Virus record (IMG/VR): IMGVR_UViG_3300026382_000002
Span: 1 to 64,000 of that record
Reading direction: 5' to 3' (one strand)
DNA: 64,000 bases
DNA from: a virus
The notes under the pieces were generated by a model, which was not told the origin of the DNA, did no database searches, and saw nothing but the letters and a program-made list of their open reading frames with translations. A program made the position numbers and the translations under genes. Of the stretch, positions 6,323-52,331 are shown piece after piece. Numbering within the stretch: the stretch's first letter is position 1; every line of letters begins with the position of its first letter.

Positions 6323-6341
6323 TCACAAAAAAGGTATTGTT

Positions 6342-10142: not shown

Positions 10143-10144
10143 AC

Positions 10145-11968
10145 ATGAGCGTAATTTACTCAGATATAGATTTAAGAAATGTTTTTAGAAAAAACCCTAT
10201 TTTATCGTCTTTTTCATCATATCTTCCTACAAACATTAAGGATATTTTTAAATGGTGTGAGTTCATAGTTAGCAATGTTCCGGTTGCTGCAGCAGGAATA
10301 AAGAAAATTTCTGAAACAACTATTACTAACTTTAAATATAATGTTGGCGATGATTTTAATGAGACCAATATAAATCTTAAAGATTCATGGAAAAAGATAA
10401 TAGAAGAAGAGCTTGGAATGAAAGCTAAATTGATAGAAATTAGTTACAATCTTGAAACATATGGAAACGCTTTTGTTTCTGTTTACAAACCTTTTAACAG
10501 AACGTTAAAATGCAAAACCTGTGGCAATACAATACCTATACAGGCAGCTAGAAATTTATCTTTTAAGATTGTCCGTCTTGCTAGTGAAACCAGCAAAGAA
10601 CACAACATAAAACCATATGACTACTCATCTAAATTAAAAGTAGAAAACGAAACTCACGATAAACTTGTCGCAAATTGTTATTGTAAAAAATGCAAAAATA
10701 TTTCATCGCATGAAATAATTGATTTACCTATAAAAGATGTAAGCAAGACCAATATTATATTGTGGAATCCACACCAAATAAGTATTGAATATAATCCTAT
10801 AAGCGGAAGAACTAATTATTATTATACAATTGACGACACAGTGAAAAAAGCTATAGAGAACAACAATAGATTATTCCTTGAGACAACTCCCAAGGAAATG
10901 ATTGTGTCAGTATTGACTAATAAAAAGTTTAAATTTAACGAAAAAAGCATTTATCATGCAAAGAAGCATTCAATATCTGGAGTAACTACAGTATGGGGAA
11001 TACCTAAATTAGTCGCAGCAATACCATCTGTGCTTACTTATATGATTTACAATAAGGCAAATGAAAAAATTGCAATGGACTATCTAGTCCCACTTAGAAC
11101 TGTTTACCCTGAATCAGCAGGGCAGGGAGAATTATATAATTTCATGTCAGGTGCTTCTGTGGCAGATAAACTAAAAGAGATAATCAATAAATGGAAAATA
11201 GACCCTTCTGGAATTCAAGTTACACCTTTTCCTGTTGGAACGCAACAGATATTAGGTGATGGCAAAATGTTAAATCTTGACCAAGAATTGAACAATAAAG
11301 AAGTATCAATCGCTAACGCATTAGGAGTGCCTATTGAATTCATTAAAGGTGGATTAAGTTATGCATCGCAAGGCCCATCGCTTAGATTGCTTGAGAATCA
11401 AATGGCAAAAAATCAATATGATATGAATAATATAATAATGTTCGTTGTTAACGAAATAGCTTCCATTTTAAACAAAGAGCCTATAAACGTTTCCTTATTG
11501 CCGTTTAAAATTATTGATGATTTACAGGAAAAAGCAACTATTGTCCAACTTGCTGCTCAAGGCGGTGGATTAATCTCCACTGGCACTTTACTAGAATTAT
11601 TTAACCTTGATGCAAATTCTGAAAGAAGAAGAACTGTAGAAGAACAAAAAGAGCAAATAAAAGAACAACTTGATTTACAACATTATCAACAAGAAATTCA
11701 ACAGTCTATAGAGGAAAAAGCTAGAGAACAAAACATTATGAATCAATCAAGATTTAATAACCTAAATCAACAAGCCTTAATTCAAGAAGCTCAAAATCAA
11801 GTAGAACAACTGATGCAGATGGATGAAGGGCAAAGAAGAAGTGCTCTTGATGAAATGGCCAAGACAAACTATATTATGTATGCAACCGTTAAGTCGTTGC
11901 TCGAAATGAAAGAAAGAAAAATGATTTATCAAACAGGAAAGCAAGCTGTTAGTGGACAACAAAATTAA
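10145..11968 (+). CDS. Portal protein candidate
   Basis: 607 aa. It has a portal-like motif (ANALGVPIEFIKGG) and a long Q/E-rich C-terminal coiled coil that resembles a barrel. A CxxC...CxCxxC insertion is present (CKTCGN...CYCKKCKN). Confidence 0.55.
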   Translation: MSVIYSDIDLRNVFRKNPILSSFSSYLPTNIKDIFKWCEFIVSNVPVAAAGIKKISETTITNFKYNVGDDFNETNINLKDSWKKIIEEELGMKAKLIEISYNLETYGNAFVSVYKPFNRTLKCKTCGNTIPIQAARNLSFKIVRLASETSKEHNIKPYDYSSKLKVENETHDKLVANCYCKKCKNISSHEIIDLPIKDVSKTNIILWNPHQISIEYNPISGRTNYYYTIDDTVKKAIENNNRLFLETTPKEMIVSVLTNKKFKFNEKSIYHAKKHSISGVTTVWGIPKLVAAIPSVLTYMIYNKANEKIAMDYLVPLRTVYPESAGQGELYNFMSGASVADKLKEIINKWKIDPSGIQVTPFPVGTQQILGDGKMLNLDQELNNKEVSIANALGVPIEFIKGGLSYASQGPSLRLLENQMAKNQYDMNNIIMFVVNEIASILNKEPINVSLLPFKIIDDLQEKATIVQLAAQGGGLISTGTLLELFNLDANSERRRTVEEQKEQIKEQLDLQHYQQEIQQSIEEKAREQNIMNQSRFNNLNQQALIQEAQNQVEQLMQMDEGQRRSALDEMAKTNYIMYATVKSLLEMKERKMIYQTGKQAVSGQQN

Positions 11969-11972
11969 ATTG

Positions 11973-11981
11973 TGTTAAAAT
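11973..11981 (+). promoter_or_regulatory. Extended -10 promoter-like box (TGTTAAAAT)
   Basis: TGTGTTAAAAT lies 24 nt upstream of ATG 12006, with SD AAAAAAAAGGA between. Confidence 0.4.
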
Positions 11982-12005
11982 TTTACAAAAAAAAAGGAAC
12001 GATAT

Positions 12006-13116: not shown

Positions 13117-13131
13117 ACAAAAGGACGTAAA

Positions 13132-13350
13132 ATGTTAGTTTTAGTAAAAACAAAAGACGGTGTTGAAAAGGCTATTAATATTACAAATGCTGAATTTGAA
13201 GCTACAAGGAACAGTCAGGATGCCTCATTGCTTGATTTGAGAATTGTAAAGGAAAATGGACAAGTTACAGAAACGACAATAACTGAGGACTCGTATAGAA
13301 TGCTTATAGATGTTTTACAAAGAAACTCTAAAATGATTTCTTTATCTTAA
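13132..13350 (+). CDS. Small hypothetical protein (72 aa)
   Basis: ORF with SD AAAAGGA upstream. It is the last gene before hairpin 13367-13391. Confidence 0.5.
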   Translation: MLVLVKTKDGVEKAINITNAEFEATRNSQDASLLDLRIVKENGQVTETTITEDSYRMLIDVLQRNSKMISLS

Positions 13351-13366
13351 CTACCTTATCGGCATA

Positions 13367-13391
13367 CTCCCCACGCCTTTAGGCGAGGGAG
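13367..13391 (+). terminator. GC-rich imperfect hairpin at the end of the 6342-13350 operon
   Basis: The sequence is CTCCC-CA-CGCC-TTTA-GGCG-A-GGGAG. The T-tail is weak. Confidence 0.4.
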
Positions 13392-13466
13392 GTTGCTTTA
13401 TACACTATCAAATTATCTGTATCATGTATAGGCCTTTAATTCTATCTGCTCGCATCTTTTGTTTTG

Positions 13467-13475
13467 TGGTATAAT
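13467..13475 (+). promoter_or_regulatory. Extended -10 promoter-like box (TGGTATAAT), consensus
   Basis: TTTTGTTTTGTGGTATAAT. The hexamer ends 22 nt upstream of ATG 13498, with SD AAAAAAGG between. Confidence 0.6.
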
Positions 13476-13497
13476 TTACACAAAAAAAAGGCTGCAA

Positions 13498-16400
13498 ATG
13501 TATCATAAAATAGATTCTAATCCAGAGGAACTAGATAATAAAATACTCAAAAATATGACAAAAGCAATAGCAGATAATTTCCCCATTAAAGGTAATTTTT
13601 ATACCTTAAAAGTAAGTAATCTTCATCCTGAAAGAGCAGACGTTTCCCTAAACGATATAAAAGATGCTATTTTGTCAGGTAAAAGTATATACAATACAAT
13701 AAAAGGAGATATGGAACTTGTAAGAAATTCTGATGGTAAAATTGTAGATAGAAAGTCCAATGTAGTGATAGCAAGAATTCCCAAATTTACAAAAAAAGAA
13801 ACTTTTATAGTTGATGGAAATTCCTACGTCGTTCCGAATCAGCAAAGATTAAAACCAGGAGCATATTTATTTCAAAGAAAAAATGGCGAGATTGTAACAA
13901 TATTTAATACTCAACAAAATAGACAATTTAAATTGTCTCTTGACCCATCTACAGGTATTTTTTATTTTAACATAGGAAGCAGTAAGGTTCCTGCTATAAG
14001 CATTCTTAACGCACTTGGTGTGTCCCATCAGGATTTAATTAAAACTATAGGTAATAAACTGTATACTGTAAACCAAAAAAAAGCGAATCCATCTGATTTA
14101 GATAAATTTATTAAAAAATCATATAAATTACCATCTGAGTTGCAGAACGCATCTAGCGAGGAAAAAATAAAATACATATTTGGGAATATGAAGGTTGACG
14201 ACGATGTAGTAAATAGAAATTTCGGGGTTAAAACAAACAAAATAGACACTAGATTAATATTGGCTTCTATGAAAAAATTATTAGATGCAAACAGGGGAGA
14301 GGAAGTTGAGCTAGACCAAAAAAACAATTTAGCCAACAAGAAAATATTAAACGCAATGCATCTAATGCCTGAATATTTTAATAAGAATTTCAAAAATGAA
14401 GCATTCAAGATTAAGTTAAAATTAAGTAAGCCAAATGTTACCAAAATTCAAGACGTTTTCACACCCTCCCATGTTACAGAAACTGCAAAACTATTCTTAA
14501 CAACATCTAAAATATCAAGAATGCCTGAAGAGTACAATCCTCTTCAAATTCATATGGCAAGTAAGCTATTAACACCTATGGGTGAAGGTGGTATTGAAAC
14601 AGATAGGGCATTAACTGAAGATGATAAGGCTATACATCCTTCACAATTAGGTTTTATAGACCCTATTGTATCCCCAGAGGGTGCAAAAACAGGTATTACA
14701 TTAGCGGTTACTGAAAACGCTTATATTTCCGATGATGGCGAGCCCGCAATAAAAGTTATCAATGTTAAAACTGGAAAAGATGAAATAGTTCCAGTTAAAG
14801 ACCTTTGGGATAAAAAAGTTGCATACCCAACCACTAATGAGAGAGCAAAAAAAGAAGGTGTTGGAGTAAGATATAAAAACAAAGAATACGTAACCAAGTC
14901 ATTAAAAGATGTTGACTATATGTTGCCTCATACTTCAGATATTCATAGCGCTTCAAGTAAGACATTGCCCCTAATTAACTCTATGGACGGTGTGAGAGCA
15001 ACAATGTCTCAAAAACATGGCCAACAAGCCCAATCGTTAAAACATAGGGAAGCACCTTTTGTTAGTACTGAGGACACTGATGGAAGAGATTTTTTTGAAA
15101 ATATTGCAGAAAAAACTACCCAAGTAATAAAAGCACACAGAAATGGTAAAGTTACTAAAATCACAGATGATGCTATTTATATTGATGGTGAAAAACACGA
15201 ACTTGTAAAAAACCTGCCTCTTTCAAGAAAAACATATATAGATATGGAACCAAAAGTAAAAGTGGGCGATATTGTAAAGAAAGGTCAAATTATTGCGGAA
15301 AGCAATTTTTCAAAAGACGGCGCACTTGCTACTGGAACTCATCTTAGGACCGCTTGGATGTCAATGCCAGGAAATAGAAATGACGCCGTAATAATATCTG
15401 AGAGCGCAGCCAAAAAATTAACATCATTACATATGTATAAAGAAGAAATACCTATAGAAAAAGATGATATTCTTGATATTAAAAAAGCTAAAGCACTGTT
15501 CCCGATGACGTTGAGCAAAGTTAATTTATCTAATTATGATTCTTATGGAGTAATAAAAAAAGGGGCTATTGTTAAACCTAAAGAGCCATTAGTTATAAAA
15601 CTTGTTCCTAACAACGAAAAGCCAATTACTTCTCTTGATAAAACGTTATTTAAACCGTTCAAGTTAAAACTTGAAACATGGGAGCATGCTCACGATGGTG
15701 AGGTGGTATCAGTCAAAAGAACCGGCAACACTGTTAGGATATTCGTAAAAACAGAAGCAGAGGCGCAAATAGGAGATAAAATATCAGGTAGGTATGGTAA
15801 CAAAGGTCTGATATCTAGGATATTGCCAGATGACAAGATGCCTAAAAACAAAAAAGGCGAACCTGTTCATGTTGTATTTACATCTGCTGGTGTAATCTCA
15901 AGAACTAACCCTGGACAATTAATAGAGGGAACATTAGGAAAAGTTTCAAGAAAAACGGGCAAAAAATATAAAATTACCCAATATGGAAATCCTGATAATT
16001 TATCATTTGCAGAAAATGAAGCAAAAAAACATGGAGTTGAACAATATGAGACATTGATAAACCCGGAAACAGGAAAGCCTTTTGATAAAAAAATATTTGT
16101 GGGAGAGCCTTACATACACAAATTGTTTAAAGATAGCGAGTCTGGGATGTCTGCAACTTCTACTGATAAAGTAAATATAAATGAACAACCTGGTAAAGGT
16201 GGAAAAACATCAGCGTCATCTTTTTCAAATATGGAGGTGAACGCATTATTAGCTCATAATGCAAAAGATTTCCTGAGAGAAGTCAGAACGATAAAAGGAC
16301 AAAAAAATGACGCTTGGTTTGAAGCGTTTAGAAAAGGTGAACCATTACCTAAGCCTGCTGAAAATTTTGCTTACGAGAAATTTAAAGCTTTACTATCTCA

Positions 16401-17820
16401 ATTGAACGTAGATGTTCATAGTGACCCAAAACAATTTAAAATTTTACCAACAACAGATAAGGAAGTAATATCTAAAGGCCGTAGAGAAGTAAAAACGCCT
16501 GAAACAATCAATGCAGCCGATGGAAAACCAAGAAAAGGGGGATTGTTTGACCCTAAAATTTTCGGTGAACTAGGAAACAGATATGGGCACATTAAATTAT
16601 CTGAACCAATAATAAACCCTATGTATTCGTATGAAACATCATTCTTGTTGGGAATTCCAGAAAAAAAACTACAAGAAGAGATGACTAAACCAAACGGTGT
16701 TTCCGATATAGTAAAAAAACTATCTACTATAGACATAAATAAAGAAATAAAAAAATTGAAAGATGAAAGCAAAAAAACTAAAAACCCTCAACTGAAAGAT
16801 AGGAATTTAAAAATAATTAAATTTCTTGAAAAATTAAGAGATAACAATCTTAAATTAAAAGATGTTGTTGTAACCAAAAACATAACAGTAATCCCCCCTA
16901 TATACAGACCTATAATAAAAGACCATACAGGAAAATATGGAGTGTCAGATATTAATATTCATTATCAGGAAATTATGAAAATCAACGATGCTTTAAAAGA
17001 AGCTAAAAAAGAAAAATTGGATACTCAAACAATAAATGCCCTGAAGGTCGATTTGCAGGATGCGATAGCGGCAATGTATGGGCTTAAAGAAAGTAAAAAT
17101 CCATTTATAAAAAATAAAAAAATTAAAGGGGTTCTTGATATAGTAGGCGGTAATAGACCAAAGGATTCATTTGTTCAGGAGAATCTATTAAGAAAAAATC
17201 AATTCATGTCGGGAAGGGCAGTTATTACTCCATCAAGAGGCGATTTAAAGCTCGATGAAATAGAAATACCTGAAGATATGGGGTTGAAGATTTACGAACC
17301 TCATATTAGCAGGGAGTTATCAAAATTAGGATATTCTCAATTGCAAATAAAAGAGATGATAAAAAATAAAGACCCTAAAGTTTTAGATGTTCTACACAAA
17401 TTAGGCAAACAAATACCTGTAGTATATAATAGGGCGCCATCATTGTGGAAACACAACTTGATTGGTGCTTATCCTAAATTTGTCCCTGGCCATAGTATAG
17501 CAATACCTCCTATGGTTGAAAGAGCGCACAACGCCGATTATGATGGCGACCAAATAGCAGTACATGTACCAGTAAGCCCAAAAGGTATTGAGGATGTGAA
17601 GAATAAAATAATGGCATCAAAACAATTGTTTACAGAGCAAGGGACTATTGTTCAAAAAGATTTACTAATGATTACTGACCAGGATGCTATTGTGGGAGTA
17701 TATAAAGCCTCAAGGCCTAGCAATAAAAAACCTGTAAAAGTTAGTAATATAAAAGAGCTTGAAAGATTGATTGCAGAGGGCAAAATTAATTATAATGATA
17801 AAGTTATAATAGGGACTTAA
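13498..17820 (+). CDS. Multisubunit RNA polymerase: beta fused to the N-terminal half of beta-prime
   Basis: Beta motifs: FIVDGNSYVV, GRYGNKGLISRILPDDKMP, and NMEVNALLAHNA. Then, with no linker, beta-prime motifs: VKTPETINAADGKPRKGGLFDPKIFG, NRAPSLWKHNL, and the catalytic NADYDGD (17530-17550). I prefer ATG 13498 over the track's TTG 13459. Confidence 0.85.
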   Translation: MYHKIDSNPEELDNKILKNMTKAIADNFPIKGNFYTLKVSNLHPERADVSLNDIKDAILSGKSIYNTIKGDMELVRNSDGKIVDRKSNVVIARIPKFTKKETFIVDGNSYVVPNQQRLKPGAYLFQRKNGEIVTIFNTQQNRQFKLSLDPSTGIFYFNIGSSKVPAISILNALGVSHQDLIKTIGNKLYTVNQKKANPSDLDKFIKKSYKLPSELQNASSEEKIKYIFGNMKVDDDVVNRNFGVKTNKIDTRLILASMKKLLDANRGEEVELDQKNNLANKKILNAMHLMPEYFNKNFKNEAFKIKLKLSKPNVTKIQDVFTPSHVTETAKLFLTTSKISRMPEEYNPLQIHMASKLLTPMGEGGIETDRALTEDDKAIHPSQLGFIDPIVSPEGAKTGITLAVTENAYISDDGEPAIKVINVKTGKDEIVPVKDLWDKKVAYPTTNERAKKEGVGVRYKNKEYVTKSLKDVDYMLPHTSDIHSASSKTLPLINSMDGVRATMSQKHGQQAQSLKHREAPFVSTEDTDGRDFFENIAEKTTQVIKAHRNGKVTKITDDAIYIDGEKHELVKNLPLSRKTYIDMEPKVKVGDIVKKGQIIAESNFSKDGALATGTHLRTAWMSMPGNRNDAVIISESAAKKLTSLHMYKEEIPIEKDDILDIKKAKALFPMTLSKVNLSNYDSYGVIKKGAIVKPKEPLVIKLVPNNEKPITSLDKTLFKPFKLKLETWEHAHDGEVVSVKRTGNTVRIFVKTEAEAQIGDKISGRYGNKGLISRILPDDKMPKNKKGEPVHVVFTSAGVISRTNPGQLIEGTLGKVSRKTGKKYKITQYGNPDNLSFAENEAKKHGVEQYETLINPETGKPFDKKIFVGEPYIHKLFKDSESGMSATSTDKVNINEQPGKGGKTSASSFSNMEVNALLAHNAKDFLREVRTIKGQKNDAWFEAFRKGEPLPKPAENFAYEKFKALLSQLNVDVHSDPKQFKILPTTDKEVISKGRREVKTPETINAADGKPRKGGLFDPKIFGELGNRYGHIKLSEPIINPMYSYETSFLLGIPEKKLQEEMTKPNGVSDIVKKLSTIDINKEIKKLKDESKKTKNPQLKDRNLKIIKFLEKLRDNNLKLKDVVVTKNITVIPPIYRPIIKDHTGKYGVSDINIHYQEIMKINDALKEAKKEKLDTQTINALKVDLQDAIAAMYGLKESKNPFIKNKKIKGVLDIVGGNRPKDSFVQENLLRKNQFMSGRAVITPSRGDLKLDEIEIPEDMGLKIYEPHISRELSKLGYSQLQIKEMIKNKDPKVLDVLHKLGKQIPVVYNRAPSLWKHNLIGAYPKFVPGHSIAIPPMVERAHNADYDGDQIAVHVPVSPKGIEDVKNKIMASKQLFTEQGTIVQKDLLMITDQDAIVGVYKASRPSNKKPVKVSNIKELERLIAEGKINYNDKVIIGT

Positions 17821-19474: not shown

Positions 19475-20134
19475 ATGGGAGTTTTTTCGTTTTTTAAAAA
19501 TGATAAAAAAGATAAATCATATAGTAACAACATTAAAGATGTTGCTATGCAGGAATGTAATTTCTACGAAAAAAAAATTAGCGATTTAGGAATTAATGGT
19601 ATTGTTGAGCTCTTACCTCAAAATGCGATAACTCATTTAAAGGAAGTTGAAAGTCAATTATTGAAAATGGACCCAAACAAAAAAAATTTACTTATAATTG
19701 ATGACAATTTGGGATTGATTTCTTTAATTAATGACATTCTGGAAATGTCCAGGTTAGACAAAGATATTAACAGTATATGCATACAAACATCATATGCCGG
19801 TTTTATATATAAAATAATTACGGAAAAATATAATTTAAAAATAGATTATGCAATAATAGATATTACATTTGGAGGAATTATAGTTGATACGCACGATGGA
19901 AACATTAAATATGAAGGGGTTATGGTTTTTAAAGATTTAATTAACAAAAATAAAGAATTGAAATATTTATTCTATACAGGTAATAGTTTAAATAAATATG
20001 TATATTCTTCTAAAAAAATAATAGATATTTTTCAACAAATAACAAATGATGATATTATGAATCACGTTGTATACAAAAACCAATATCCACCATCAAAACT
20101 AATAAATATCGTAAAAAGTTTAATAAAAGGATAA
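19475..20134 (+). CDS. Response-regulator receiver-domain protein without a recognisable output domain
   Basis: NLLIIDDN (acidic pair D76/D77), DYAIIDITFGG (candidate phospho-acceptor D129), and LFYTGNS (conserved T). Strong SD TAAGGAG. It sits immediately upstream of the kinase. Confidence 0.6.
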   Translation: MGVFSFFKNDKKDKSYSNNIKDVAMQECNFYEKKISDLGINGIVELLPQNAITHLKEVESQLLKMDPNKKNLLIIDDNLGLISLINDILEMSRLDKDINSICIQTSYAGFIYKIITEKYNLKIDYAIIDITFGGIIVDTHDGNIKYEGVMVFKDLINKNKELKYLFYTGNSLNKYVYSSKKIIDIFQQITNDDIMNHVVYKNQYPPSKLINIVKSLIKG

Positions 20135-20136: not shown

Positions 20137-21243
20137 ATGTGGGGTATGATTGCAAAAGACGCATTTTGGAAAGTGTTTATTTCTTTTGTTATTGTATGTT
20201 TTACAATAATTGGACTCGGATATCTAGACTGTTTTGAGAATGATAGCAAATGCTCTATAGAATGCGTTTTTAAATATGATTGGGTTCATTTGACTGCAAA
20301 ATACTATATGTTTATTGTGCTGGTGTTTGTTGTATCTTTTATAATCAATGTAATAATAGATTATGTTGAATATAAAAAATCAGCAATGTTACATATGTTG
20401 AACTTTAACTCTATGTCCACAAATAAAACGCTTGTACATATAACAGAAAATATATCACACGAATTGTCTACACCATTAGAAGTTATATCTTTTAAAATGT
20501 TTAAAATAAGAAAAATTATTAACACTATTATAAATGATGAATTTTCTATATGGATGAAAGAAAACTGCACACAAACTAATTCTTGTACTAAAGAAGAGAA
20601 ATGTTTACTTTCAGATTCTAATATAGAGATTCTTAAACAACATTTTCTAAAATCAAAAAATAAAAAAAAATATATTGATGAACTATTAAAAATAGATAAT
20701 GAGTTTAAATACGTTGATGCCTCAATAGAGCAAATTGGCAATATTTTACAGAAAATGAAAGGTTTTAAATCTATAAAATATTCCAATGGTAATAAAACTT
20801 TATATGACATAATTGAAACTTCATTTCAGGTCATGGCTATATCTCATAAAGACTTTAAATGGGGGATAGATGAAAAATTCAAGAAATACAGACTGTGTCA
20901 TAAAAAATGTCTTCATAATGGAGATTTATTAAACATTATGATAAACCACATTAAAAATTCTATAGAAGCTAATGCTACTACTATATCAGCACATTTTATT
21001 AGATATACAAATGGCTTTCTATATCTTTACATTAAAGATAATGGTTCAGGTATTCCAAGACAATTTATAAACACAGTATTCTCACCTAATATAAGCAGCA
21101 AATCTAAAATGCTTGATATTAGAGGAAATGGGATGTTTATAAACAGGGAAATAATACGAAGCACTGGAGGGGATATAAGAATAGTTGAAACCTCTAAAAG
21201 AGGAACTGTTTTTGAGCTAAAAATAAGAGCAGAAAAAATCTAA
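20137..21243 (+). CDS. Membrane sensor histidine kinase
   Basis: Two N-terminal TM helices. H-box ISHELSTPL (His108 at 20458-20460), N-box LLNIMINHIKNSIEA, G1 IKDNGSGIP, F-box FINTVFSP, and G2 RGNGMFI. Confidence 0.85.
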   Translation: MWGMIAKDAFWKVFISFVIVCFTIIGLGYLDCFENDSKCSIECVFKYDWVHLTAKYYMFIVLVFVVSFIINVIIDYVEYKKSAMLHMLNFNSMSTNKTLVHITENISHELSTPLEVISFKMFKIRKIINTIINDEFSIWMKENCTQTNSCTKEEKCLLSDSNIEILKQHFLKSKNKKKYIDELLKIDNEFKYVDASIEQIGNILQKMKGFKSIKYSNGNKTLYDIIETSFQVMAISHKDFKWGIDEKFKKYRLCHKKCLHNGDLLNIMINHIKNSIEANATTISAHFIRYTNGFLYLYIKDNGSGIPRQFINTVFSPNISSKSKMLDIRGNGMFINREIIRSTGGDIRIVETSKRGTVFELKIRAEKI

Positions 21244-27562: not shown

Positions 27563-27882
27563 TACATTACTCCGAGAATTGTAGTAGTTTTAAGTATATT
27601 TGGATTTGCAGATTCTCCCCCCTCTTTAACAATACCATAACTAGATGTTATATAAGGACCAGTGAATTCTGAAGAAAAAACCTTGCCGGCGGGCGTATTA
27701 AAACTATTTGTTGCTAACACTGTGGCTTCTACTATTCCGCCTTTAACTTTGATATCGTCTCTTATTTTTTGATTTCCATTAATTGGAGAATCTATGGGTA
27801 TTTCAACAGTCTTTGTGACATTTTTGCTGATTACGATTGAACATTTTTCAGTTGTCCCTATTTTAGTAGTTATTGTTCCCAT
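27562..27882 (-). CDS. Small hypothetical tail protein (106 aa)
   Basis: ORF coupled by ATGA-type overlaps to both the tape measure gene and the 574-aa gene. Confidence 0.5.
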   Translation of the reverse strand: MGTITTKIGTTEKCSIVISKNVTKTVEIPIDSPINGNQKIRDDIKVKGGIVEATVLATNSFNTPAGKVFSSEFTGPYITSSYGIVKEGGESANPNILKTTTILGVM

Positions 27883-30800
27883 TATTTTTCTCCTGCTATA
27901 ATTTTAGTACTATTTGCTATATCTTTTAAATAATCATTATTTTTATGCAGTATTGTAATCATAGCAGTTTCTTTATCTGACCTGCTTAAATTATTTATTT
28001 TTTTAACAAACTCAAGAGACTCTTTATCGTTCATACCAAGCATCTTAGGCATTTCTGTCATTCTTTGAATCTTCTCCAATTCTCTGAGAGACATAAATCC
28101 TTGATGGTTTTTTTCTCTGTATTTATTTATTTCATCTAATGCTGCTGTAGGCGACTTAATCCATTTCCTTATTATATCTTTTTTTTGCTTTTCACCCAAG
28201 TAGTCCATCCCCATTAAATGAAACATATTGTTTATATTCTCTTTTGCTTCTTTTGCTGTTTCTATTTTTGCATATTGATAATACTTACCTCTTTTATCTT
28301 CATCATCATCTTTAGTAGCAAACAAAAATCTTGCCATCGCTTTTGTAATTTTTGTCTTCTCTTTTTTGTCCTGAATAAAATCCAGTGCACTTATCATTTG
28401 CTCTTTATCGCCGCTTTCTATTGCGGATTCTAATATCTTCACTGTTCCTTTTGATATTTTAGCCCCGTGAATTGTTCCATATAGCTCTCTACCTATATTT
28501 ACTCTATGTTTATCTTCTTTTGTAGTAAATAAACCATCGAACGTACCCAGCTCTTTTTGGTTTATTGCGTTTATATAACCTTGGTCAGCCTCAGTTAACG
28601 ATTGTTTTAGTTCTTCAAAATCTTCTTGCCCCAAAGCATAACTTTTTTTGAGCTGCTTTTTAAATTCGTGCATTTTGCCTTCCATAGCTAATTTTAAAAG
28701 TTGCTGTTTCTGATAATCTTTGTTGGCAACAGTTTTGTAGGTTTCACTTATTTTAGGAATAATAGCTTTGTATTTATTATAATCGATTCCTTTTTTCTTT
28801 AATATATCAACAAATTCTCCCTTACCCCCTTCTTTTTGCCAATTGTAATATTGATTTGCTATTTCCATAGCCTTGTCTAACTGTGTGCCAGTTATCCCTG
28901 CTTTATTAAACTTATATAAGGATTCAACTTGAAATCTACCTTTTATACCCTTAGATGTTATGTATTTAGAATATTCCTTATGGTTAGCTAACATTCTTGG
29001 TAATGAATATTCTTTTGTAAATACTAGAGGTTTCCATCCCCCTATATCTTTTTGTAGAAAATCTCTCTCAAATTCTATATGGTACAAATTTTTAAAGTAT
29101 TGGTATGGAGAAGATACGTTATTTTTTAACCATTCCTTTTTATACATATATTTGATTGCATTTTTATCAAATATATTATATAGAGCGCTGTCTTCGGCAT
29201 AATCCTCCGCTTTTTTAAGTCCTTTATTTATTTCTTCTTCTGAAAGAGGTTTTATGTTAGTGTTTGCTGAATATTTGAGAAGATTCTGGAGATACTCTTG
29301 AAAGGTTTTTGCTCCTGTTAAATATTTAAAATCATTGCTTCTTCTGAAAAAAGCATATTTGTTGTACTTGTCTCCTTTGAACTTCAAGGATTGTTCCATT
29401 CTTTTTACTTTATCAAAAATTTCTTCGCCTGATGAGCCTCCCCACCATTCAGTTAAATCGTTCTCCACACCTCTCCACCATCTTGATATTGTGTTTATAA
29501 CACCAGTATCTTGTTTGTATTTTATCCCTTGATTAGCTATAGTGGTAAGTCTTTTTTTGTAGTTTGCTACCTCTGATTGTTTATCTAACATTGACCAGTC
29601 CCCAAAAATAAGCCTATTTTGAACTAAAGGCTTTACAGCAGACAGTTCTTTTGAACTTAAATGAGCTACTTGCTGCAAATTAAATAATACATTTTCGGCG
29701 GTTACTTTTTTTCCTTTTTCTTTTAAGTTCCTTATAACATTATCTATAAGCTGCTGGGACTGTGTTCTCCTTATGTGAAGATTGCCAACTTCTGGATTTT
29801 CCTGGACAACAGTTGCCAACAAGTCTTTATTGTAATAAATTTTATTAAAATCTTTAATAGATTTGCTGTATTGCATCACTAAATCATTTTTTTCTTGAGG
29901 AGACATTGCCTGCATTTTGTTAAATGCTTTTTGTAATGATATTTTATTTTTTTTTGCATAAATCATAGATAAATATATATCTTTATTAGTATCAACACCA
30001 AATATATTGTGAAGCGCTAATTCTGACTTTTGATTAGCAGAAGTATATGCAGACATCTGTTCCTGCCTATTTGTTAAATAATTAGAACTAAATGGTCCTC
30101 TTGATAAATAATTCATCTGATACAATTGAGAAAACATTTGTTTTGCAACTATTCTTCTATCAATAGATAAAGGGTTTTGTTGTGATGTAGCCAAACCTAT
30201 TGTCTGCTCTATTATATTTTTACTTATTCCAGACATATCAGAGGCTATTTTCATTGACTTCATTATGTCAAATGATTGAGACCTAGTAAACCCCAAACTT
30301 CTGTATTTTGCTAATCCTTCTAGAAGTTTGGAAGGGTTTGTTTCTCCTAAAAACTCGGCTAAATCACGCACTCTATCCTTTAACATTTTGGTTACTTGTT
30401 TGAATTTATGCTCAGAATTAACGTCGTTCATAAAACCAAATTTGCTAAATTTTAACATCATATCTTGGATATCATCCGCACTAAACATGGTATCTTCAAC
30501 CCCAAGCTTCCTTATGTACTTAGATATGTTCTTTACCTGTTTAGACGAAAGGCCCACATCTAATCCATTTTCACCTAACATATTTGATGTAATAATGTTT
30601 ACTTTTTGGTTTTGAGCAAATATCTTTCTCATGTTTTTCTTATATTTATCTGCAGCGTATTCAATACCAAAACCAATTGGTATTCCAGCCCACCCACCCA
30701 GAAACATTGAACCTACTTGTCCTGCAGTAGCAATAGCAGACACTCCAAATTCGCTTGCTTCAAGAGAATGCTGCTGTTTTGCGGCAAGAGAAGAATAGAC

Positions 30801-31052
30801 GTTATTCATACCTATTCTTCTTGTCGTTCCAAGAGATTGCAATATATAATCTTTTACACCATATTCATAAGTTGCGTAAGGATGGTTTAAATATTGAACA
30901 TTGCCCGTCATATTGTATCCGGTGCTTATATTGTTCATAAAAAATGGATTATACCCAATCATGCTGTTGAATAAATGCTGACCATTTTGTTTTTTCATTA
31001 AAGCATATAGGTAGAATGGGTTATTTAAATCTATTCCTCCGTAATTATCCAT
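27882..31052 (-). CDS. Tape measure protein candidate
   Basis: 1056 aa, mostly helical and K/E/Q-rich, with a hydrophobic Gly-rich segment (GQVGSMFLGGWAGIPIGFGIEY). It follows the chaperone/frameshift pair directly. Confidence 0.65.
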   Translation of the reverse strand: MDNYGGIDLNNPFYLYALMKKQNGQHLFNSMIGYNPFFMNNISTGYNMTGNVQYLNHPYATYEYGVKDYILQSLGTTRRIGMNNVYSSLAAKQQHSLEASEFGVSAIATAGQVGSMFLGGWAGIPIGFGIEYAADKYKKNMRKIFAQNQKVNIITSNMLGENGLDVGLSSKQVKNISKYIRKLGVEDTMFSADDIQDMMLKFSKFGFMNDVNSEHKFKQVTKMLKDRVRDLAEFLGETNPSKLLEGLAKYRSLGFTRSQSFDIMKSMKIASDMSGISKNIIEQTIGLATSQQNPLSIDRRIVAKQMFSQLYQMNYLSRGPFSSNYLTNRQEQMSAYTSANQKSELALHNIFGVDTNKDIYLSMIYAKKNKISLQKAFNKMQAMSPQEKNDLVMQYSKSIKDFNKIYYNKDLLATVVQENPEVGNLHIRRTQSQQLIDNVIRNLKEKGKKVTAENVLFNLQQVAHLSSKELSAVKPLVQNRLIFGDWSMLDKQSEVANYKKRLTTIANQGIKYKQDTGVINTISRWWRGVENDLTEWWGGSSGEEIFDKVKRMEQSLKFKGDKYNKYAFFRRSNDFKYLTGAKTFQEYLQNLLKYSANTNIKPLSEEEINKGLKKAEDYAEDSALYNIFDKNAIKYMYKKEWLKNNVSSPYQYFKNLYHIEFERDFLQKDIGGWKPLVFTKEYSLPRMLANHKEYSKYITSKGIKGRFQVESLYKFNKAGITGTQLDKAMEIANQYYNWQKEGGKGEFVDILKKKGIDYNKYKAIIPKISETYKTVANKDYQKQQLLKLAMEGKMHEFKKQLKKSYALGQEDFEELKQSLTEADQGYINAINQKELGTFDGLFTTKEDKHRVNIGRELYGTIHGAKISKGTVKILESAIESGDKEQMISALDFIQDKKEKTKITKAMARFLFATKDDDEDKRGKYYQYAKIETAKEAKENINNMFHLMGMDYLGEKQKKDIIRKWIKSPTAALDEINKYREKNHQGFMSLRELEKIQRMTEMPKMLGMNDKESLEFVKKINNLSRSDKETAMITILHKNNDYLKDIANSTKIIAGEK

Positions 31053-43147: not shown

Positions 43148-44905
43148 TTATAGTCGATGGGCTGTGTGTTTTTCTCTTCCTGAAACTATTTCATCTGTTT
43201 TAAACCCTTTTCCTCTTTTAACTTCATCGGTAATAGCTTTTTGTAAATATCTATAATTCAATTTAGCAAATAAATTTCTATTAAAGTTTGGTCTCATTAC
43301 AAGAGTCTTGTACACAGGTTTTACGGGTGGTTTTTGGTCAGTTATATATACAAATCTCACACCATGTAGTTTAAGCATATTTAATATATAATCATCAATC
43401 AGTGTACCCTTTAGAAAGACATCTACGTTTTCAGCAAGATACTTACCAACAATATCAGGACCAACTATTACTTTCTTTTTATAACTAGGATAATTTTTTA
43501 GTGCGGCGTTTATATCATACAGTTCGCCTTCATCATCTTTTGCTAACGATAAGTGTCCTCTTGCAATTACTTCAAAATGTTTTTTATTTAAATCTTTGCC
43601 GGTACTGTTTAAAAATGTCTGGTGTAAAAGGTCAGCTTCCTGTTTTCTGGCGGCTCCTATACCTTGATGTTCCAATTTATCTTTAACTGACACTATTCCA
43701 GTGGACAGCTCTTGCCCTTTGTAAACAAAATCGCCCTGTTTAACTTTTAATTTTTTATCTTCCTGAACATATACTTTTGTCTTGTCAGAGTTAATATATA
43801 CAAAATGTCCTCCCTGCGGAGCATTATCTATTCTTATAACTCTACCAGAAACAGGAGCTACTGCCGCTTTTTGTTTAAAATTGCTAGGGCTATTTACCAC
43901 TATTTTAAAACCTTCCATTCCTTGAAGTTTATCAGCTTCTTCGTCTTTTGCACCAACTGAGTGTTTTGTTGAAAGTACCATTTGTGTTAATGGCTCACCA
44001 ATACTTTGCGCTGCTTCTATACCCACTTCTTCTCCTATAGCAGGCAACCGTCCATTTGATTTTAACCCATAACACATTGCACATATACCTCTAGAGGCTT
44101 CGCAAGTTATAGGGCTTCTAACTCTTACACATTTAACTTTTTTGTTTTTTAATTCCTTCCAATATTTTTCGTCTATCAACCTATTTGTACCAGCCTCATA
44201 TCTCCCTACGATGTGATGGTCCATTGGCGACATACAAATTCCATTTTTAGTTCCACAATCATGCTTTGTAATAACTTGATTATCAGTATTTGCTACAAGC
44301 ACTTTTCCAAACTCGCCAGGCTCAGATGTAGCATTAGCGGTTTGAACTGCAGAGAACCTACCCTGAGATGCAACCGCAAAATATTCTTGAGTATTGAGAC
44401 CTTTTATAAAATTATTTTTTATCATTATAGGTTTAGGAGTCTGGTCCATGCCCACAGCATAAAAAGGCGCCCAACTCATTCTAGCTAACTGAGCCGGTTT
44501 TCCTCTAGCGGAAGACTTAATTTGTGTTAACATTTCATTATTATCATCATTCATATTGCTGACGTTTTTTTGAGCCTCGTTAAATGCTTTCATTAATATT
44601 TTCTTCTTTTGAGTATCAGTTTTGGCTTTTTTGAATTCTCTTTCTATTTTTTTTATATGCTTCTCTACCTCTTTTTCATTTATTCTTAAATCTTTAGTTC
44701 CAACATTAGCCCCAAGATAATAGGCCATTTTTTCAGCTAAAGCTGTTATTTTGTGTATTCTTTCCTTATATAGTTCTGGATATTTTTCAGCAAACTTTTT
44801 AAGTTTGTTTGTATATGTTTTTTTATCTATAGGTTTATCAGGTTCAAATTGTATATCCTTAGGCATTAAACTGTTTAATAATATTACTCCGGCTGTTGCT
44901 GTCAT
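43148..44905 (-). CDS. RNA polymerase beta-prime, C-terminal half
   Basis: TATAGVILLNSLMPKD and LGANVGTKDL align with E. coli beta-prime around residue 560 onward. The bridge helix reads SARGKPAQLARMSWAP...GLNTQEYFAVASQGR, and the trigger loop region reads AAQSIGEPLTQMVLSTKHSVGA. Confidence 0.85.
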   Translation of the reverse strand: MTATAGVILLNSLMPKDIQFEPDKPIDKKTYTNKLKKFAEKYPELYKERIHKITALAEKMAYYLGANVGTKDLRINEKEVEKHIKKIEREFKKAKTDTQKKKILMKAFNEAQKNVSNMNDDNNEMLTQIKSSARGKPAQLARMSWAPFYAVGMDQTPKPIMIKNNFIKGLNTQEYFAVASQGRFSAVQTANATSEPGEFGKVLVANTDNQVITKHDCGTKNGICMSPMDHHIVGRYEAGTNRLIDEKYWKELKNKKVKCVRVRSPITCEASRGICAMCYGLKSNGRLPAIGEEVGIEAAQSIGEPLTQMVLSTKHSVGAKDEEADKLQGMEGFKIVVNSPSNFKQKAAVAPVSGRVIRIDNAPQGGHFVYINSDKTKVYVQEDKKLKVKQGDFVYKGQELSTGIVSVKDKLEHQGIGAARKQEADLLHQTFLNSTGKDLNKKHFEVIARGHLSLAKDDEGELYDINAALKNYPSYKKKVIVGPDIVGKYLAENVDVFLKGTLIDDYILNMLKLHGVRFVYITDQKPPVKPVYKTLVMRPNFNRNLFAKLNYRYLQKAITDEVKRGKGFKTDEIVSGREKHTAHRL

Positions 44906-45345
44906 TATTGTCCTTTAAAAGTCAAATTATAATAATCAATTGTATCAAAATCTGCGTCTATTCCAGACCCTATATAATGCCCTCTTTTTTTTATAATAGA
45001 ATTTATAGCGGCATTATTTCTAACTATTCCTATTATAGCAGGTTTATTTTTAAGTTTATCATTCATATGTTTCCATAGTTTATATCCTAGTTTTTTTTGT
45101 CTAACTAGCGGATGTAGAATAAAAGCTTTTATTATATATATTTCATTGGTTTCTTCAAATGTATAAAGTCCTCTTACATTCCCTTCTACAATAAGAACAA
45201 CGGTTTTGTTTTTAGAGTTTTTTAGAATATGCTCGGCCTCTATTTTGTTTATTAATTCGCCCTTAAACTCTTTAAAAAATCTTTGTATTAACTGCACTGA
45301 TTCGTTATAGGTATATTTATCAATCTGTTTTATTTCACTATTCAT
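44905..45345 (-). CDS. GNAT-family N-acetyltransferase candidate
   Basis: 146 aa. IIKAFILHPLVRQKKLGYKLWKHM resembles GNAT motif A (beta4-alpha3). Its stop overlaps the beta-prime-C start. Confidence 0.5.
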   Translation of the reverse strand: MNSEIKQIDKYTYNESVQLIQRFFKEFKGELINKIEAEHILKNSKNKTVVLIVEGNVRGLYTFEETNEIYIIKAFILHPLVRQKKLGYKLWKHMNDKLKNKPAIIGIVRNNAAINSIIKKRGHYIGSGIDADFDTIDYYNLTFKGQ

Positions 45346-51067: not shown

Positions 51068-51691
51068 GTGGCTGAAAAAATAAAAATTACCAACTCGTAT
51101 TATAAAGAGTTATACATATCTAAAACTGACCAATACGGAAATGAAAAACCTATAGACTTATCTAAATATAATGATTGTTATGTAATTTTTAAAAAGAATA
51201 GATTAGTGCCTGATGAAGAGGCCTATCTTATTAAAAAAATATATCCAGATGATTCAAATATTGGAGTAATCCCTATTTATCTAACCCCTGAAGAAACAAA
51301 GATGTTGCCGCTTACATCTTTTGATGGAGATTTGCCATATTTTTATATGTTTGTTCAGATAGGGAGTACAGCCACGGGCGAAACAATGGAAGTGGGTGAA
51401 TACAAGGTAAAAACAGAATACGCAGGTTTAAGATATTACACTAAAGTTGACACTGATTTAAGTGATTTGGGACCTATTACAGGATATGTAGGCTATGTGT
51501 TTGATTGTGGCAGATTGTGCGAGCCAGCAGTATATGTGCTTGACTTATCTGGAGGAAAGCCTATCGTTACAGATTGTGGGAAATTAACAAACTATGAATA
51601 TACTATTATAGATTTAGGGCCTATATCAAAAGAGCCTATTGAGATTTATGATTTAAGTAAGTTTACTGGAGTGTGTGATGTTAATATTTAG
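51068..51691 (+). CDS. Hypothetical protein
   Basis: 207-aa ORF with a GTG start after SD AAAAAGG. Confidence 0.55.
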   Translation: MAEKIKITNSYYKELYISKTDQYGNEKPIDLSKYNDCYVIFKKNRLVPDEEAYLIKKIYPDDSNIGVIPIYLTPEETKMLPLTSFDGDLPYFYMFVQIGSTATGETMEVGEYKVKTEYAGLRYYTKVDTDLSDLGPITGYVGYVFDCGRLCEPAVYVLDLSGGKPIVTDCGKLTNYEYTIIDLGPISKEPIEIYDLSKFTGVCDVNI

Positions 51692-52331
51692 TTCTGACCC
51701 ACAGATAAATCAAATAGCTAATCAACAGCTCGAATATTTTGTTAACAAATTCAAACAAAACCACAACGAAAATGTACTAAGGGCAAAAGGTGAAATAATT
51801 ATAAAAAAAGCTCTTAAAAACTGGAACCCTAGTAAAGGAAATCTTAAAACATTTTTATCTTCACAACTGCAACAACTATCAAGAGAACTTTATAAAAATC
51901 AAATTGTTTATATCCCCGAAAACCAACAATTATTAATGTACAAGGCACAACAAATTATTAATACATATAATGACACGTATGGAGGAGTCCCTGATGCTAA
52001 ATATTTAGCCAAACAGTTAAATATAACAGAAAAGAAAGCAAAAAACTTACTAAACTTATATGGAGGGGTTGTTTCTCATCAGTATGATACAGATATAAAA
52101 GGAAAAACTGCTGAAACATATTCCCCACTTGAAATAATAAACACTATTCCAGATTCTTTGCACAGAGAAATTGCTAATGATTTATATTTAAAAGAGAAAC
52201 CCAAAGATTATATTTATAAAAAATATGGAATTAAGCAAACTAAATTTTATGAAATCAAAAAGAGTATAGATTCACATATAAACAGATATTCTGAAGCTAT
52301 GAATACAGAAAAAGATAAAGGATTATTCTAA
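51675..52331 (+). CDS. Sigma-70-family sigma factor
   Basis: Region 2-like NWNPSKGNLKTFLSSQLQQLSRELYKNQIVYIPEN. Region 3-like GGVPDAKYLAKQLNITEKKAKNLL. Region 4.2-like HTH DYIYKKYGIKQTKFYEIKKSIDSHI. Confidence 0.65.
   Translation: MMLIFSSDPQINQIANQQLEYFVNKFKQNHNENVLRAKGEIIIKKALKNWNPSKGNLKTFLSSQLQQLSRELYKNQIVYIPENQQLLMYKAQQIINTYNDTYGGVPDAKYLAKQLNITEKKAKNLLNLYGGVVSHQYDTDIKGKTAETYSPLEIINTIPDSLHREIANDLYLKEKPKDYIYKKYGIKQTKFYEIKKSIDSHINRYSEAMNTEKDKGLF

What the first reader, a model, noticed from the sequence alone, without database searches (positions are those of the whole stretch)
13498..17820. RNA polymerase beta fused in frame to the N-terminal half of beta-prime; the beta-prime zinc-binding segment is missing
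One 1440-aa ORF contains the beta landmarks FIVDGNSYVV, GRYGNKGLISRILPDDKMP and MEVNALLAHNA.

The beta C-terminal helix follows (ENFAYEKFKALLSQLNVDVHS, compare E. coli ESFNVLLKEIRSLGINIEL). About three residues later, near 16424-16433, the beta-prime N-terminus begins (FKILPTTDKEV...VKTPETINAADGKPRKGGLFDPKIFG). It runs through NRAPSLW to the catalytic NADYDGD and stops shortly after.

Where E. coli beta-prime has the Cys4 zinc-binding element between IFGP and GHIEL, this protein has only ELGNRY.

The remainder of beta-prime is encoded about 25 kb away on the opposite strand (43148..44905). Jumbo-phage multisubunit polymerases that I know of split beta and beta-prime into separate halves. A beta/beta-prime-N fusion plus a free beta-prime-C is a different arrangement. 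It echoes the rpoB-rpoC fusion of Helicobacter-type hosts. No alpha or omega homolog is visible in the window.
Basis: partly seen in the sequence, partly recalled or inferred. Interest (0 to 1): 0.8.

Follow-up and report, generated by a model that had tools for sequence, protein, structure and literature searches.

The report
Phage RNA polymerase with fused β–β′N subunit
A large, very divergent phage encodes a bacterial-type RNA polymerase in which the β subunit is joined to the first half of β′, the second half of β′ is a separate gene and the phage has its own sigma factor; hundreds of phage lineages share this layout, but I found no paper that describes it.

Summary
ORF 13498..17820 (+, 1440 aa) holds a complete RNAP β module (aa 1-975), a 4-residue linker and the N-terminal half of β′ (aa ~980-1440, catalytic NADYDGD). 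The ~34-residue N-terminal Zn element of β′ is absent, and the protein has no cysteine. ORF 43148..44905 (-) is the exactly complementary β′ C-half. ORF 51678..52331 (+) is a σ70-family factor.

The fusion is not an artefact. The identical ORF lies on 5 independently assembled contigs, and 849 clusters (50% identity) match a junction-spanning probe; all 150 listed do so in one continuous stretch. Relatives are either β–β′N plus a free β′C (as here, in Salmonella phage Arash and in Vibrio phages) or a single β–β′ chain of about 2050 aa.

The family is not Helicobacter-derived. It is not φKZ-like. It is not the published "mReC" set, which has separate β and β′ genes. In Arash, all three proteins were detected in virions.

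Best reading: a minimal phage polymerase of two chains plus σ, with no α or ω found, probably packaged in the virion. This is a new variant of a known kind. It is widespread in databases but undescribed in the literature I could search.

The parts
13467..13485 (+). Promoter-like element TGGTATAAT-ttac-ACAAAA (extended -10 plus a conserved A-rich downstream box), 22 nt upstream of the ATG. An AAAGG ribosome-binding site follows it.
   Evidence: TGNTATAAT occurs 17 times against 8.3±3.1 expected. The longer motif occurs 22 times against 5.9±2.2 expected. Nine intergenic copies lie 18-29 nt upstream of start codons.
13498..17820 (+). Fused RNAP large subunit, β–β′N, 1440 aa, no cysteine.
   Evidence: The AF2 model of aa 241-1440 has pLDDT 86.2 and pTM 0.76. 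Its Foldseek top hits are bacterial β chains at about 1e-50.
13498..16422 (+). β module, aa 1-975. It is complete and compact; the best solved match is cyanobacterial β.
   Evidence: 8gzg_C residues 85-1058, 4e-67. (Rpb2_3, Rpb2_6).
16423..16434 (+). Four-residue linker (DPKQ) between the β C-terminal helix and the β′ N-terminus.
   Evidence: The junction is alignable in all 16 diverse homologues aligned. Model pLDDT is 80-92 across the junction.
16435..17817 (+). β′ N-terminal module, aa 980-1440. It holds the clamp helices and the catalytic barrel with NADYDGD (nt 17530-17550), and ends at about E. coli β′ residue 552.
   Evidence: alignments to bacterial β′ 20-65, 96-, and 171-546. (Rpb1_1, Rpb1_2).
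16567..16584 (+). Site of the missing Zn-binding element. The hexapeptide ELGNRY stands where bacterial β′ has about 34 residues that include four Cys.
   Evidence: The element is absent in all 16 aligned family members.
43148..44905 (-). β′ C-terminal half, 585 aa, with the bridge-helix and trigger-loop region. It keeps the second Zn site (C217, C268, C275, C278).
   Evidence: In single-chain relatives such as P0060 the two window ORFs abut at residues 1473/1475.
51678..52331 (+). Phage σ70-family factor, 217 aa, with σ2-, σ3- and σ4-like modules.
   Evidence: It is a homologue of Arash virion protein gp10 (1.8e-6). gp10 matches Sigma70_r3 at 9e-9. A family profile hits almost only σA/RpoD/RpoS chains in PDB, best 2.8e-8. 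The AF2 model has pLDDT 79, and nearly all its significant Foldseek hits are σ chains aligned over the full length.
10145..11968 (+). Portal protein gene (context). The order portal, small ORFs, RNAP fusion gene is shared with phages Arash and D69.
   Evidence: Arash gp204, 1.7e-71..

Best explanation
The ORF encodes the large catalytic subunit of a phage-encoded, bacterial-type multisubunit RNA polymerase. The enzyme is built from two polypeptides, β–β′N (165 kDa) and β′C (585 aa). It works with a phage σ70-family factor encoded in the same window.

Shown:
- Both barrel-containing modules lie in one chain.
- β′C is the exact complement of that chain.
- The catalytic motifs are intact.
- The N-terminal Zn element is lost and cysteines are absent.
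- A phage σ factor is present.
- The junction is conserved family-wide.

Inferred:
- The covalent β→β′ tether joins two termini that lie next to each other in bacterial RNAP. It helps the enzyme assemble without the α2 platform and ω, neither of which was found.
- As in the cultured relative Arash, the polymerase and its σ are packed into the virion and start phage transcription on entry.
- The near-absence of Cys and Zn sites suits a protein that must be ejected and then refold.

The free β′C is most simply a secondary fission of an ancestrally single β–β′ chain. In this lineage its gene has moved 25 kb away onto the other strand.
For: Domain content and residue-level alignments.

The two ORFs are complementary. 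They abut in single-chain relatives.

The ORF is real. The identical 1440-aa ORF lies on 5 independent contigs.

The family is large:
- 81 proteins with the fused architecture appear.
- At least 125 IMG/VR contigs encode relatives.
- 849 clusters at 50% identity match a junction-spanning probe at E ≤ 1e-10, and all 150 listed matches are one continuous stretch.

The junction is unbroken in every clade member examined. Apparent exceptions are breaks elsewhere in the gene (L043, L074, L048) or TGA recoding (L047, L081).

An NJ tree puts the phage fusions in one clade apart from bacterial β′ and from mReC loci. Single-chain forms are paraphyletic in it.

σ factor.

No α or ω Pfam domain was found in about 42 window ORFs.

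Arash virion mass spectrometry (PMC10585845):
- gp206 (the fusion) gave the most spectra, with 100% coverage and 128 unique peptides.
- gp216 (β′C) had 89% coverage.
- gp10 (σ) had 100% coverage.

Portal-to-RNAP gene order is conserved.

Cysteine depletion:
- P(0 Cys in 1440 aa) is about 1e-5 given the window's composition.
- The window's clade has 0 Cys.
- Arash gp206 has 1 Cys in 1525 aa.
- Intein-free relatives have a median of 1 Cys.

Only one RNAP set per genome was found in Arash and the Vibrio phages (one place per record).
Against: - Virion packaging is known only for Arash, which is 29% identical. Its authors note that abundant intracellular enzymes could contaminate particle preparations.
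- Absence of α and ω was tested only by Pfam, and only in 64 kb of a genome of at least 161 kb. A divergent assembly factor could exist.
- No biochemical data exist for any member of the family.
- The tree is a rough NJ tree. The window's lineage sits on a long branch, so the polarity and number of β′C fissions are tentative.
- Cysteine depletion is a trend across the family, not a rule.
- The extended -10 promoters could equally be read by host σ70.
Confidence: 0.8

Rival explanations
1. It is the same enzyme, but it is not a virion protein. It is made after infection and transcribes only middle or late genes. Its detection in Arash particles would be carry-over of an abundant cytoplasmic enzyme.
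For: The Arash authors raise this possibility themselves. The window's gene carries the same promoter-like motif as neighbouring genes in the window, several of them homologues of Arash structural genes, which shows only that it is co-expressed with them.
Against: gp206 gave the most spectra of any protein in Arash virions, and β′C and σ were found with it. The gene sits next to the portal gene in three distant lineages. These genomes encode only one RNAP set. Strong Cys depletion is shared with another large putative virion protein, ORF 27882..31052, a homologue of Arash gp4.
Confidence: 0.25
2. The gene was captured recently from a host with a fused rpoBC (Helicobacter, Campylobacterota or Wolbachia type). 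It then lost or relocated the β′ C-half.
For: The low GC content (about 31%) is compatible with such hosts, and the β→β′ gene order and fusion are analogous.
Against: Cellular β and β′ are only 24-28% identical to the ORF. A cellular-type fusion (P0090) falls outside the phage clade. The fusion is shared by phages of Salmonella and Vibrio and by hundreds of metagenomic lineages. No close relative exists in 185,579 species-representative genomes.
Confidence: 0.03
3. β′N and β′C are rejoined after translation by a split intein (protein trans-splicing), so the mature enzyme is a single chain.
For: Inteins and homing endonucleases are frequent in this gene family.
Against: Homology to β′ runs to within about 6 residues of the fusion ORF's C-terminus and starts at residue 3 of β′C. 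That leaves no room for intein halves. The fusion ORF also has no Cys; Ser or Thr as a possible splice-junction nucleophile was not examined.
Confidence: 0.02
4. The fusion is an assembly or sequencing artefact, or the gene is a decaying pseudogene.
For: None found.
Against: The identical ORF lies on 5 independent contigs. The junction is conserved in at least 150 non-redundant representatives. The catalytic residues are invariant across the family. The Arash orthologue was detected with 100% peptide coverage.
Confidence: 0.01

Closest known systems
Salmonella phage Arash gp206 / gp216 / gp10 (OQ632216; PMC10585845), and Vibrio phages D69, D148, D181
   Same: They share the β–β′N fusion (1525-1527 aa, 29% identity over the full length), a separate β′C, a σ factor, the portal-adjacent position, the missing Zn element, and near-absence of Cys (1-2 per protein).
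   Different: In those phages β′C lies 0.6-5 kb downstream on the same strand. Here it is 25 kb away on the opposite strand. The records annotate the fusion simply as 'subunit beta' or 'hypothetical protein', and the Arash paper does not mention it.
mReC polymerases (Weinheimer & Aylward 2020, PMC7481178)
   Same: They are deep-branching, phage-encoded, bacterial-type β/β′ genes on contigs of roughly 20-310 kb. One of the two mReC polymerase types also lacks the Zn element.
   Different: In mReC, β (about 1000-1420 aa) and a complete β′ (about 900-1390 aa) are always separate ORFs (L085 is an mReC contig). mReC proteins contain many Cys. The mReC loci fall outside the fused clade in the NJ tree. 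The paper's selection filter would have excluded fused genes.
Cellular rpoB-rpoC fusions (Helicobacter, Wolbachia); engineered E. coli β::β′ tether (Severinov et al. 1997, from my own knowledge)
   Same: β is joined head-to-tail to β′ through the neighbouring β C-terminus and β′ N-terminus.
   Different: The cellular fusions carry the whole β′, keep both Zn sites, and work with α2 and ω. I found no specific sequence relationship: about 25% identity.
Cyanobacterial and plastid split β′ (γ/β′, rpoC1/rpoC2)
   Same: β′ is broken after the catalytic barrel. Cyanobacterial β is also the best solved match to the β module.
   Different: The break here lies at about E. coli β′ 552-583, some 35-65 residues upstream of the cyanobacterial break at about 619 (extrapolated). 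In cyanobacteria β is a separate subunit and the Zn element is present.
φKZ/AR9-type jumbo-phage multisubunit RNAPs (PMC7598289, PMC7824862)
   Same: They are phage-encoded two-barrel RNAPs without α or ω, with β′ split after the barrel, and they include a virion-packaged form.
   Different: In those phages β is split into 2-3 pieces and is never fused to β′. There are two paralogous enzymes per genome. No σ factor is present; a phage-specific fifth subunit takes its place.
Single-chain two-barrel phage RNAPs (crAss-like gp66, YonO, P23-45 tape-measure-fused RNAP)
   Same: Both catalytic barrels lie in one polypeptide, and some are virion-packaged and ejected.
   Different: Those enzymes are so divergent that β/β′ profiles do not detect them. 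They lack most β/β′ accessory domains and do not use σ70-type factors (statements in PMC7481178; abstract of 10.1101/2022.12.01.518664).

Membership tests
Two-barrel multisubunit RNAP (β/β′ superfamily) | β-type catalytic barrel region (Rpb2_6) | tested here: met
   Pfam Rpb2_6 at 1.9e-40. GRYGNKG motif at aa 764. K761, K769 and G770 are invariant in the family.
Two-barrel multisubunit RNAP (β/β′ superfamily) | β′ barrel with the Mg-binding NADxDGD triad | tested here: met
   NADYDGD at aa 1345-1351. D1347, D1349 and D1351 are invariant. The motif aligns to NADFDGD of bacterial β′.
Two-barrel multisubunit RNAP (β/β′ superfamily) | Bridge-helix and trigger-loop region (β′ C-half) | tested here: met
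   It lies in the separate ORF 43148..44905(-): Rpb1_5 at 4.6e-20, aligned to β′ 661-1145 of Streptomyces.
Canonical bacterial core α2ββ′ω | N-terminal Cys4 Zn-binding element of β′ | tested here: not met
   About 34 residues are absent and the ORF has no Cys.
Canonical bacterial core α2ββ′ω | α and ω subunits | tested here: inconclusive
   No RNA_pol_A_bac, RNA_pol_L or Rpb6 hit in about 42 window ORFs. Only 64 kb of a genome of at least 161 kb was visible, and Pfam is weak on this genome. Arash annotates only β, β′ and σ.
Canonical bacterial holoenzyme | σ70-family initiation factor | tested here: met
   ORF 51678..52331. Physical association with the polymerase was not tested.
Helicobacter/Wolbachia-type RpoBC | One chain containing β and the complete β′ | tested here: not met
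   The chain stops at about E. coli β′ residue 552, and β′C is a separate gene.
Helicobacter/Wolbachia-type RpoBC | Phylogenetic affinity to those cellular lineages | tested here: not met
   Identity is 24-28%. The cellular sequences lie outside the phage clade in the NJ tree. No close genomic relative was found.
φKZ-type jumbo-phage msRNAP | β split into two or more polypeptides; no σ; two paralogous RNAP sets | tested here: not met
   β is intact and fused, a σ factor is present, and cultured relatives have one RNAP set per genome.
mReC (Weinheimer & Aylward 2020) | Separate β and β′ ORFs, each at least 800 aa, with NADxDGD in the β′ ORF | tested here: not met
   Here NADYDGD lies in the same ORF as β. 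All listed mReC entries have distinct β and β′ ORFs.
Fused β–β′N phage RNAP family (Arash-like; unnamed) | Continuous junction from the β C-terminal helix to the β′ N-terminus, with no Zn element | tested here: met
Fused β–β′N phage RNAP family (Arash-like; unnamed) | Virion association | not testable with these tools
   Known only from Arash virion mass spectrometry. Conserved synteny with the portal gene is supportive.

The most novel reading that the evidence does not exclude
This family is a distinct class of self-sufficient, σ-dependent multisubunit RNA polymerase that needs no α2 or ω. The covalent β→β′ tether does the assembly job. The enzyme has shed one Zn site, or both in some single-chain members, and almost all cysteines, because it is packaged in the capsid and must be ejected through the tail and refold in the host. 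It would be the smallest known bacterial-type holoenzyme, made of one or two chains plus σ.
Probability: 0.35. Interest if true: 0.8.

Novelty: new variant of a known kind. Interest (0 to 1): 0.6.

Why it matters
Bacterial-type RNA polymerases are thought to need an α-dimer platform and ω to assemble β and β′. Their two Zn sites are treated as conserved structural features.

This family has hundreds of lineages. They carry a recognisably bacterial β/β′ and their own σ. β is fused to β′. The N-terminal Zn element is absent in every member checked, and some single-chain members also lack the second Zn site. No α or ω was detected.

If the enzyme is active as one or two chains plus σ, three things follow:
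- It would be a minimal, genetically compact model for σ-dependent transcription and a candidate orthogonal polymerase for engineering.
- It would give a second, independent example, beside φKZ-like and crAss-like phages, of a large polymerase delivered from the virion.
- It would add fused and re-split states to the debate on how β and β′ architectures evolved.

A cultured member, Salmonella phage Arash, already exists, so these questions are directly testable.

Tried and rejected
- PHROGs annotation of 20 window ORFs gave almost nothing, only an endolysin. Pfam was only slightly better.
- Megablast of 20 kb of the window against the phage collection found no match.
- I first assumed the family was the published mReC clade, because L032 comes from an mReC sample. 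I rejected this after reading the paper's Supplementary Data 2: every mReC entry has separate β and β′ ORFs, and the mReC contig Ga0075122_10000014 is my locus L085, which is unfused.
- L043, L074 and L048 looked like members with an unfused β and β′N. I rejected this: the junction is intact and the breaks lie about 75 aa into β′N or inside β, probably from insertions.
- L047 and L081 looked like splits. I rejected this: every in-frame stop is TGA, which points to recoding.
- The N-terminal 140 aa of β′C searched alone against PDB gave only noise. The split position therefore rests on whole-protein alignments.
- Cluster look-up returned no useful names.
- The GTDB genome scan gave no host clue.
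- The φKZ and AR9 structure papers do not discuss Zn sites, so I could not compare that feature from the literature.

Full report
**1. The observation**

ORF 13498..17820 (+) is real and uninterrupted, 1440 aa from the ATG.

Pfam places β domains in aa 344-901 (Rpb2_3; Rpb2_6 at 1.9e-40). It places β′ domains in aa 1076-1367 of the same ORF (Rpb1_1, Rpb1_2). Rpb1_5 falls in ORF 43148..44905(-).

Against solved structures:
- The β part (aa 74-975) aligns end to end with cyanobacterial β (8gzg_C, 4e-67).
- The β′ part (aa 1055-1434) aligns with bacterial β′ 171-546.

At residue level, ORF aa ~981-1024 align to β′ 20-65, and NRYGHIKLSEP aligns to β′ from residue 96. The ~34-residue Cys4 Zn ribbon is therefore missing. 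The protein has no cysteine at all. Given the Cys frequency of the other window ORFs (0.79%), the chance of that is about 1e-5.

An AF2 model of aa 241-1440 is confident: pLDDT 86.2, pTM 0.76. pLDDT is 80-92 across the junction and about 91 at the deletion site. Its best Foldseek matches are bacterial, cyanobacterial and plastid β chains at about 1e-50.

**2. The partner and the split**

ORF 43148..44905(-) aligns from its residue 3 to Streptomyces β′ 661 and C. difficile β′ 579, and runs through the bridge-helix and trigger-loop region.

The fusion ORF ends at about E. coli β′ 552, and β′C starts at about 583. The break is thus 35-65 residues upstream of the cyanobacterial γ/β′ break at about 619. 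These positions are extrapolated.

In single-chain relatives the two window ORFs abut exactly; in P0060 the boundary is at residues 1473/1475. Nothing is lost at the break and there is no room for a split intein.

β′C keeps the second Zn site, at C217, C268, C275 and C278.

**3. Not an artefact, and a large family**

- The identical 1440-aa protein is called on 5 independently assembled contigs from the Logan and ENA collections.
- The word-indexed protein search returned 81 proteins carrying the fused domain combination, at 27-91% identity. Cellular RpoB and RpoC followed at 24-28%.
- An IMG/VR scan found at least 125 contigs encoding relatives.
- An exhaustive search of 1.84 billion cluster representatives with a junction-spanning probe (aa 900-1075) gave 849 hits at E ≤ 1e-10. 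All 150 listed hits match the junction in one continuous stretch.

Three architecture states occur:
- A: β–β′N of about 1400-1500 aa plus a separate β′C. This includes the window, Arash and the Vibrio phages.
- B: one chain β–β′N–β′C of about 2000-2150 aa.
- Either of these, enlarged by inteins or homing endonucleases.

Apparent exceptions dissolve on inspection:
- In L043, L074 and L048 the junction is intact and the break lies elsewhere in the gene.
- In L047 and L081 every in-frame stop is TGA.

In most state-A loci β′C lies 0.5-4 kb downstream on the same strand. In the window it is 25 kb away on the other strand. In a 38%-identical relative on a 192-kb contig it is likewise not within ±10 kb.

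A rough NJ tree of the β′N module puts all fused phage sequences in one clade, separate from bacterial β′. Single-chain lineages are paraphyletic in it, and the main state-A group is nested within them. The window and L007 sit on a long branch. The break point is the same in the window and in the main state-A group. That favours either one fission event or a structurally preferred cut site. This point remains tentative.

**4. What the enzyme works with**

ORF 51678..52331 is a σ70-family factor:
- It matches Arash gp10 at 1.8e-6. gp10 passes Pfam's Sigma70_r3 threshold.
- A profile of the window protein's family hits almost only σA, RpoD and RpoS chains in PDB, best 2.8e-8.
- An AF2 model (pLDDT 79) shows σ2-, σ3- and σ4-like helical modules with a disordered linker.
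- Nearly all its significant Foldseek hits are σ chains of holoenzymes, aligned over the full length.

The β′ clamp helices that bind σ2 in bacterial RNAP (a role I take from my own knowledge) are alignable.

No α or ω domain was detected in about 42 window ORFs. This is weak negative evidence, for two reasons. The window covers 64 kb of a genome of at least 161 kb. Profile libraries also see little in this phage.

**5. Context and likely role**

The window is phage DNA:
- terminase at 61849..63480
- portal at 10145..11968
- GH108 endolysin and a holin directly downstream of the RNAP gene

The order portal, small ORFs, RNAP fusion gene is shared with Arash and Vibrio phage D69.

In Arash, virion mass spectrometry found the fusion protein gp206 as the protein with the most spectra. 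It had 100% coverage and 128 unique peptides. β′C (gp216) and σ (gp10) were found as well. The authors call gp206 simply 'subunit beta' and do not mention a fusion. They also caution that contamination is possible (PMC10585845).

Arash and the Vibrio phages have only one matching place per genome.

From this I infer a virion-delivered polymerase that starts phage transcription. I put that sub-claim at about 0.55. The identity and composition of the enzyme I put above 0.9.

**6. Comparison with known systems**

- Helicobacter/Wolbachia RpoBC: an analogy only.
- Cyanobacterial split β′: a similar break but not the same position, and β is free there.
- φKZ/AR9 polymerases: β is split, there is no σ, and there are two paralogous enzymes.
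- mReC (PMC7481178): this is the closest published clade, but every listed entry has separate β and β′ ORFs. Their filter required two hits of at least 800 aa, with NADxDGD in the β′ hit, which would exclude fused genes. A bona fide mReC contig, my L085, lies outside the fused clade.
- Zn element in mReC: one polymerase type keeps it and the other lacks it. Loss of the element is therefore recurrent in phage RNAPs.

Literature searches found no description of a β–β′N fusion in phages, including in a 2026 jumbo-phage review. The searched library does not cover subscription-only papers.

**7. Verdict**

The finding is correct. It points to a widespread, essentially undescribed architecture of a known enzyme kind. 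It is not unique to this window and it is not host-derived.

Interest is moderate to high. It offers a minimal σ-dependent bacterial-type RNAP with covalently tethered catalytic subunits, few or no Zn sites and no α or ω detected. A cultured representative is available for direct tests.

Noticed in passing
window, intergenic sites: 2400-2418(-), 6289-6307(-), 6314-6332(+), 11973-11991(+), 13467-13485(+), 43115-43133(-), 50424-50442(-), 51036-51057(both strands), 55618-55636(-), 58229-58247(-), 61819-61837(-): A phage-specific promoter-like motif, tTGnTATAATtwwaCAAAAA, has an extended -10 and no obvious -35. It lies 18-29 nt upstream of many start codons, including that of the RNAP fusion gene. 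It occurs 22 times against 5.9±2.2 expected (0 of 100 shuffles reach that count). Whether the host σ70 or the phage σ reads it is unknown.
   Followed up: partly
window 27882..31052 (-): A 1056-aa ORF also has zero cysteines (8.3 expected). It is a weak homologue (7e-6) of Arash virion protein gp4. It may be another ejected protein that shares the cysteine avoidance.
   Followed up: partly
relatives P0058, P0060, P0063, P0070, P0074 (single-chain β–β′, about 2030-2100 aa): The second β′ Zn site is also replaced by non-Cys residues (DSGP ... TDPTPHGISAKSYG). P0058, P0070 and P0074 have no Cys at all; P0060 and P0063 have one each. These would be multisubunit-type RNAPs with no Zn site.
   Followed up: partly
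L047 (IMGVR_UViG_3300000172_000001) 10172-15946; L081 (IMGVR_UViG_3300035698_022190) 10106-16015: The RNAP reading frame is interrupted only by in-frame TGA codons (4 and 3 of them; no TAA or TAG). This indicates TGA-recoded phages that carry the single-chain RNAP gene.
   Followed up: partly
window 20137..21243 (+) with 19475..20134 (+); also L088 618-2015: A histidine-kinase-like HATPase_c protein (1.5e-10) is encoded near the RNAP gene, both in the window and in a 38%-identical relative. Its function is unknown.
   Followed up: no
window 44905..45345 (-): The ORF directly upstream of β′C abuts its start codon. It has a weak GNAT acetyltransferase match (Acetyltransf_10, 3.4e-4, below Pfam's cutoff).
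   Followed up: no
L003 (Vibrio phage D181) 4516-5464; proteins P0045, P0054, P0062, P0068, P0072, P0075-P0079, P0081: The RNAP fusion gene is a hotspot for mobile insertions. D181 and D148 carry a homing-endonuclease-containing insertion that splits the β module. Many metagenomic homologues carry inteins or LAGLIDADG domains.
   Followed up: partly
mReC contigs in PMC7481178 Supplementary Data 2 (e.g. Ga0180432_10000070, Ga0180431_10000006); my loci L080/L077 versus L085/L086: Some mReC genomes carry two different RNAP sets. One has β of about 1365 aa with β′ of about 1005 aa and no Zn element. The other has β of about 1010 aa with β′ of about 900 aa and a Cys4 element. This recalls the virion and non-virion pairs of jumbo phages.
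   Followed up: partly
L057 (IMGVR_UViG_3300031722_000008, 160.5 kb) 9971-16957: A 2329-aa β–β′ fusion on a viral contig groups with a cellular-type fusion (P0090) rather than with the phage fused clade in the NJ tree. It may be an independent fusion or capture.
   Followed up: no
Arash gp7 (L087 7425-8105) versus window 43148..44905: Arash 'structural protein' gp7 (226 aa) gives a phmmer hit to the window's β′C (1.5e-7). I did not examine the cause; it may be a shared sandwich-barrel or M23-like domain.
   Followed up: no
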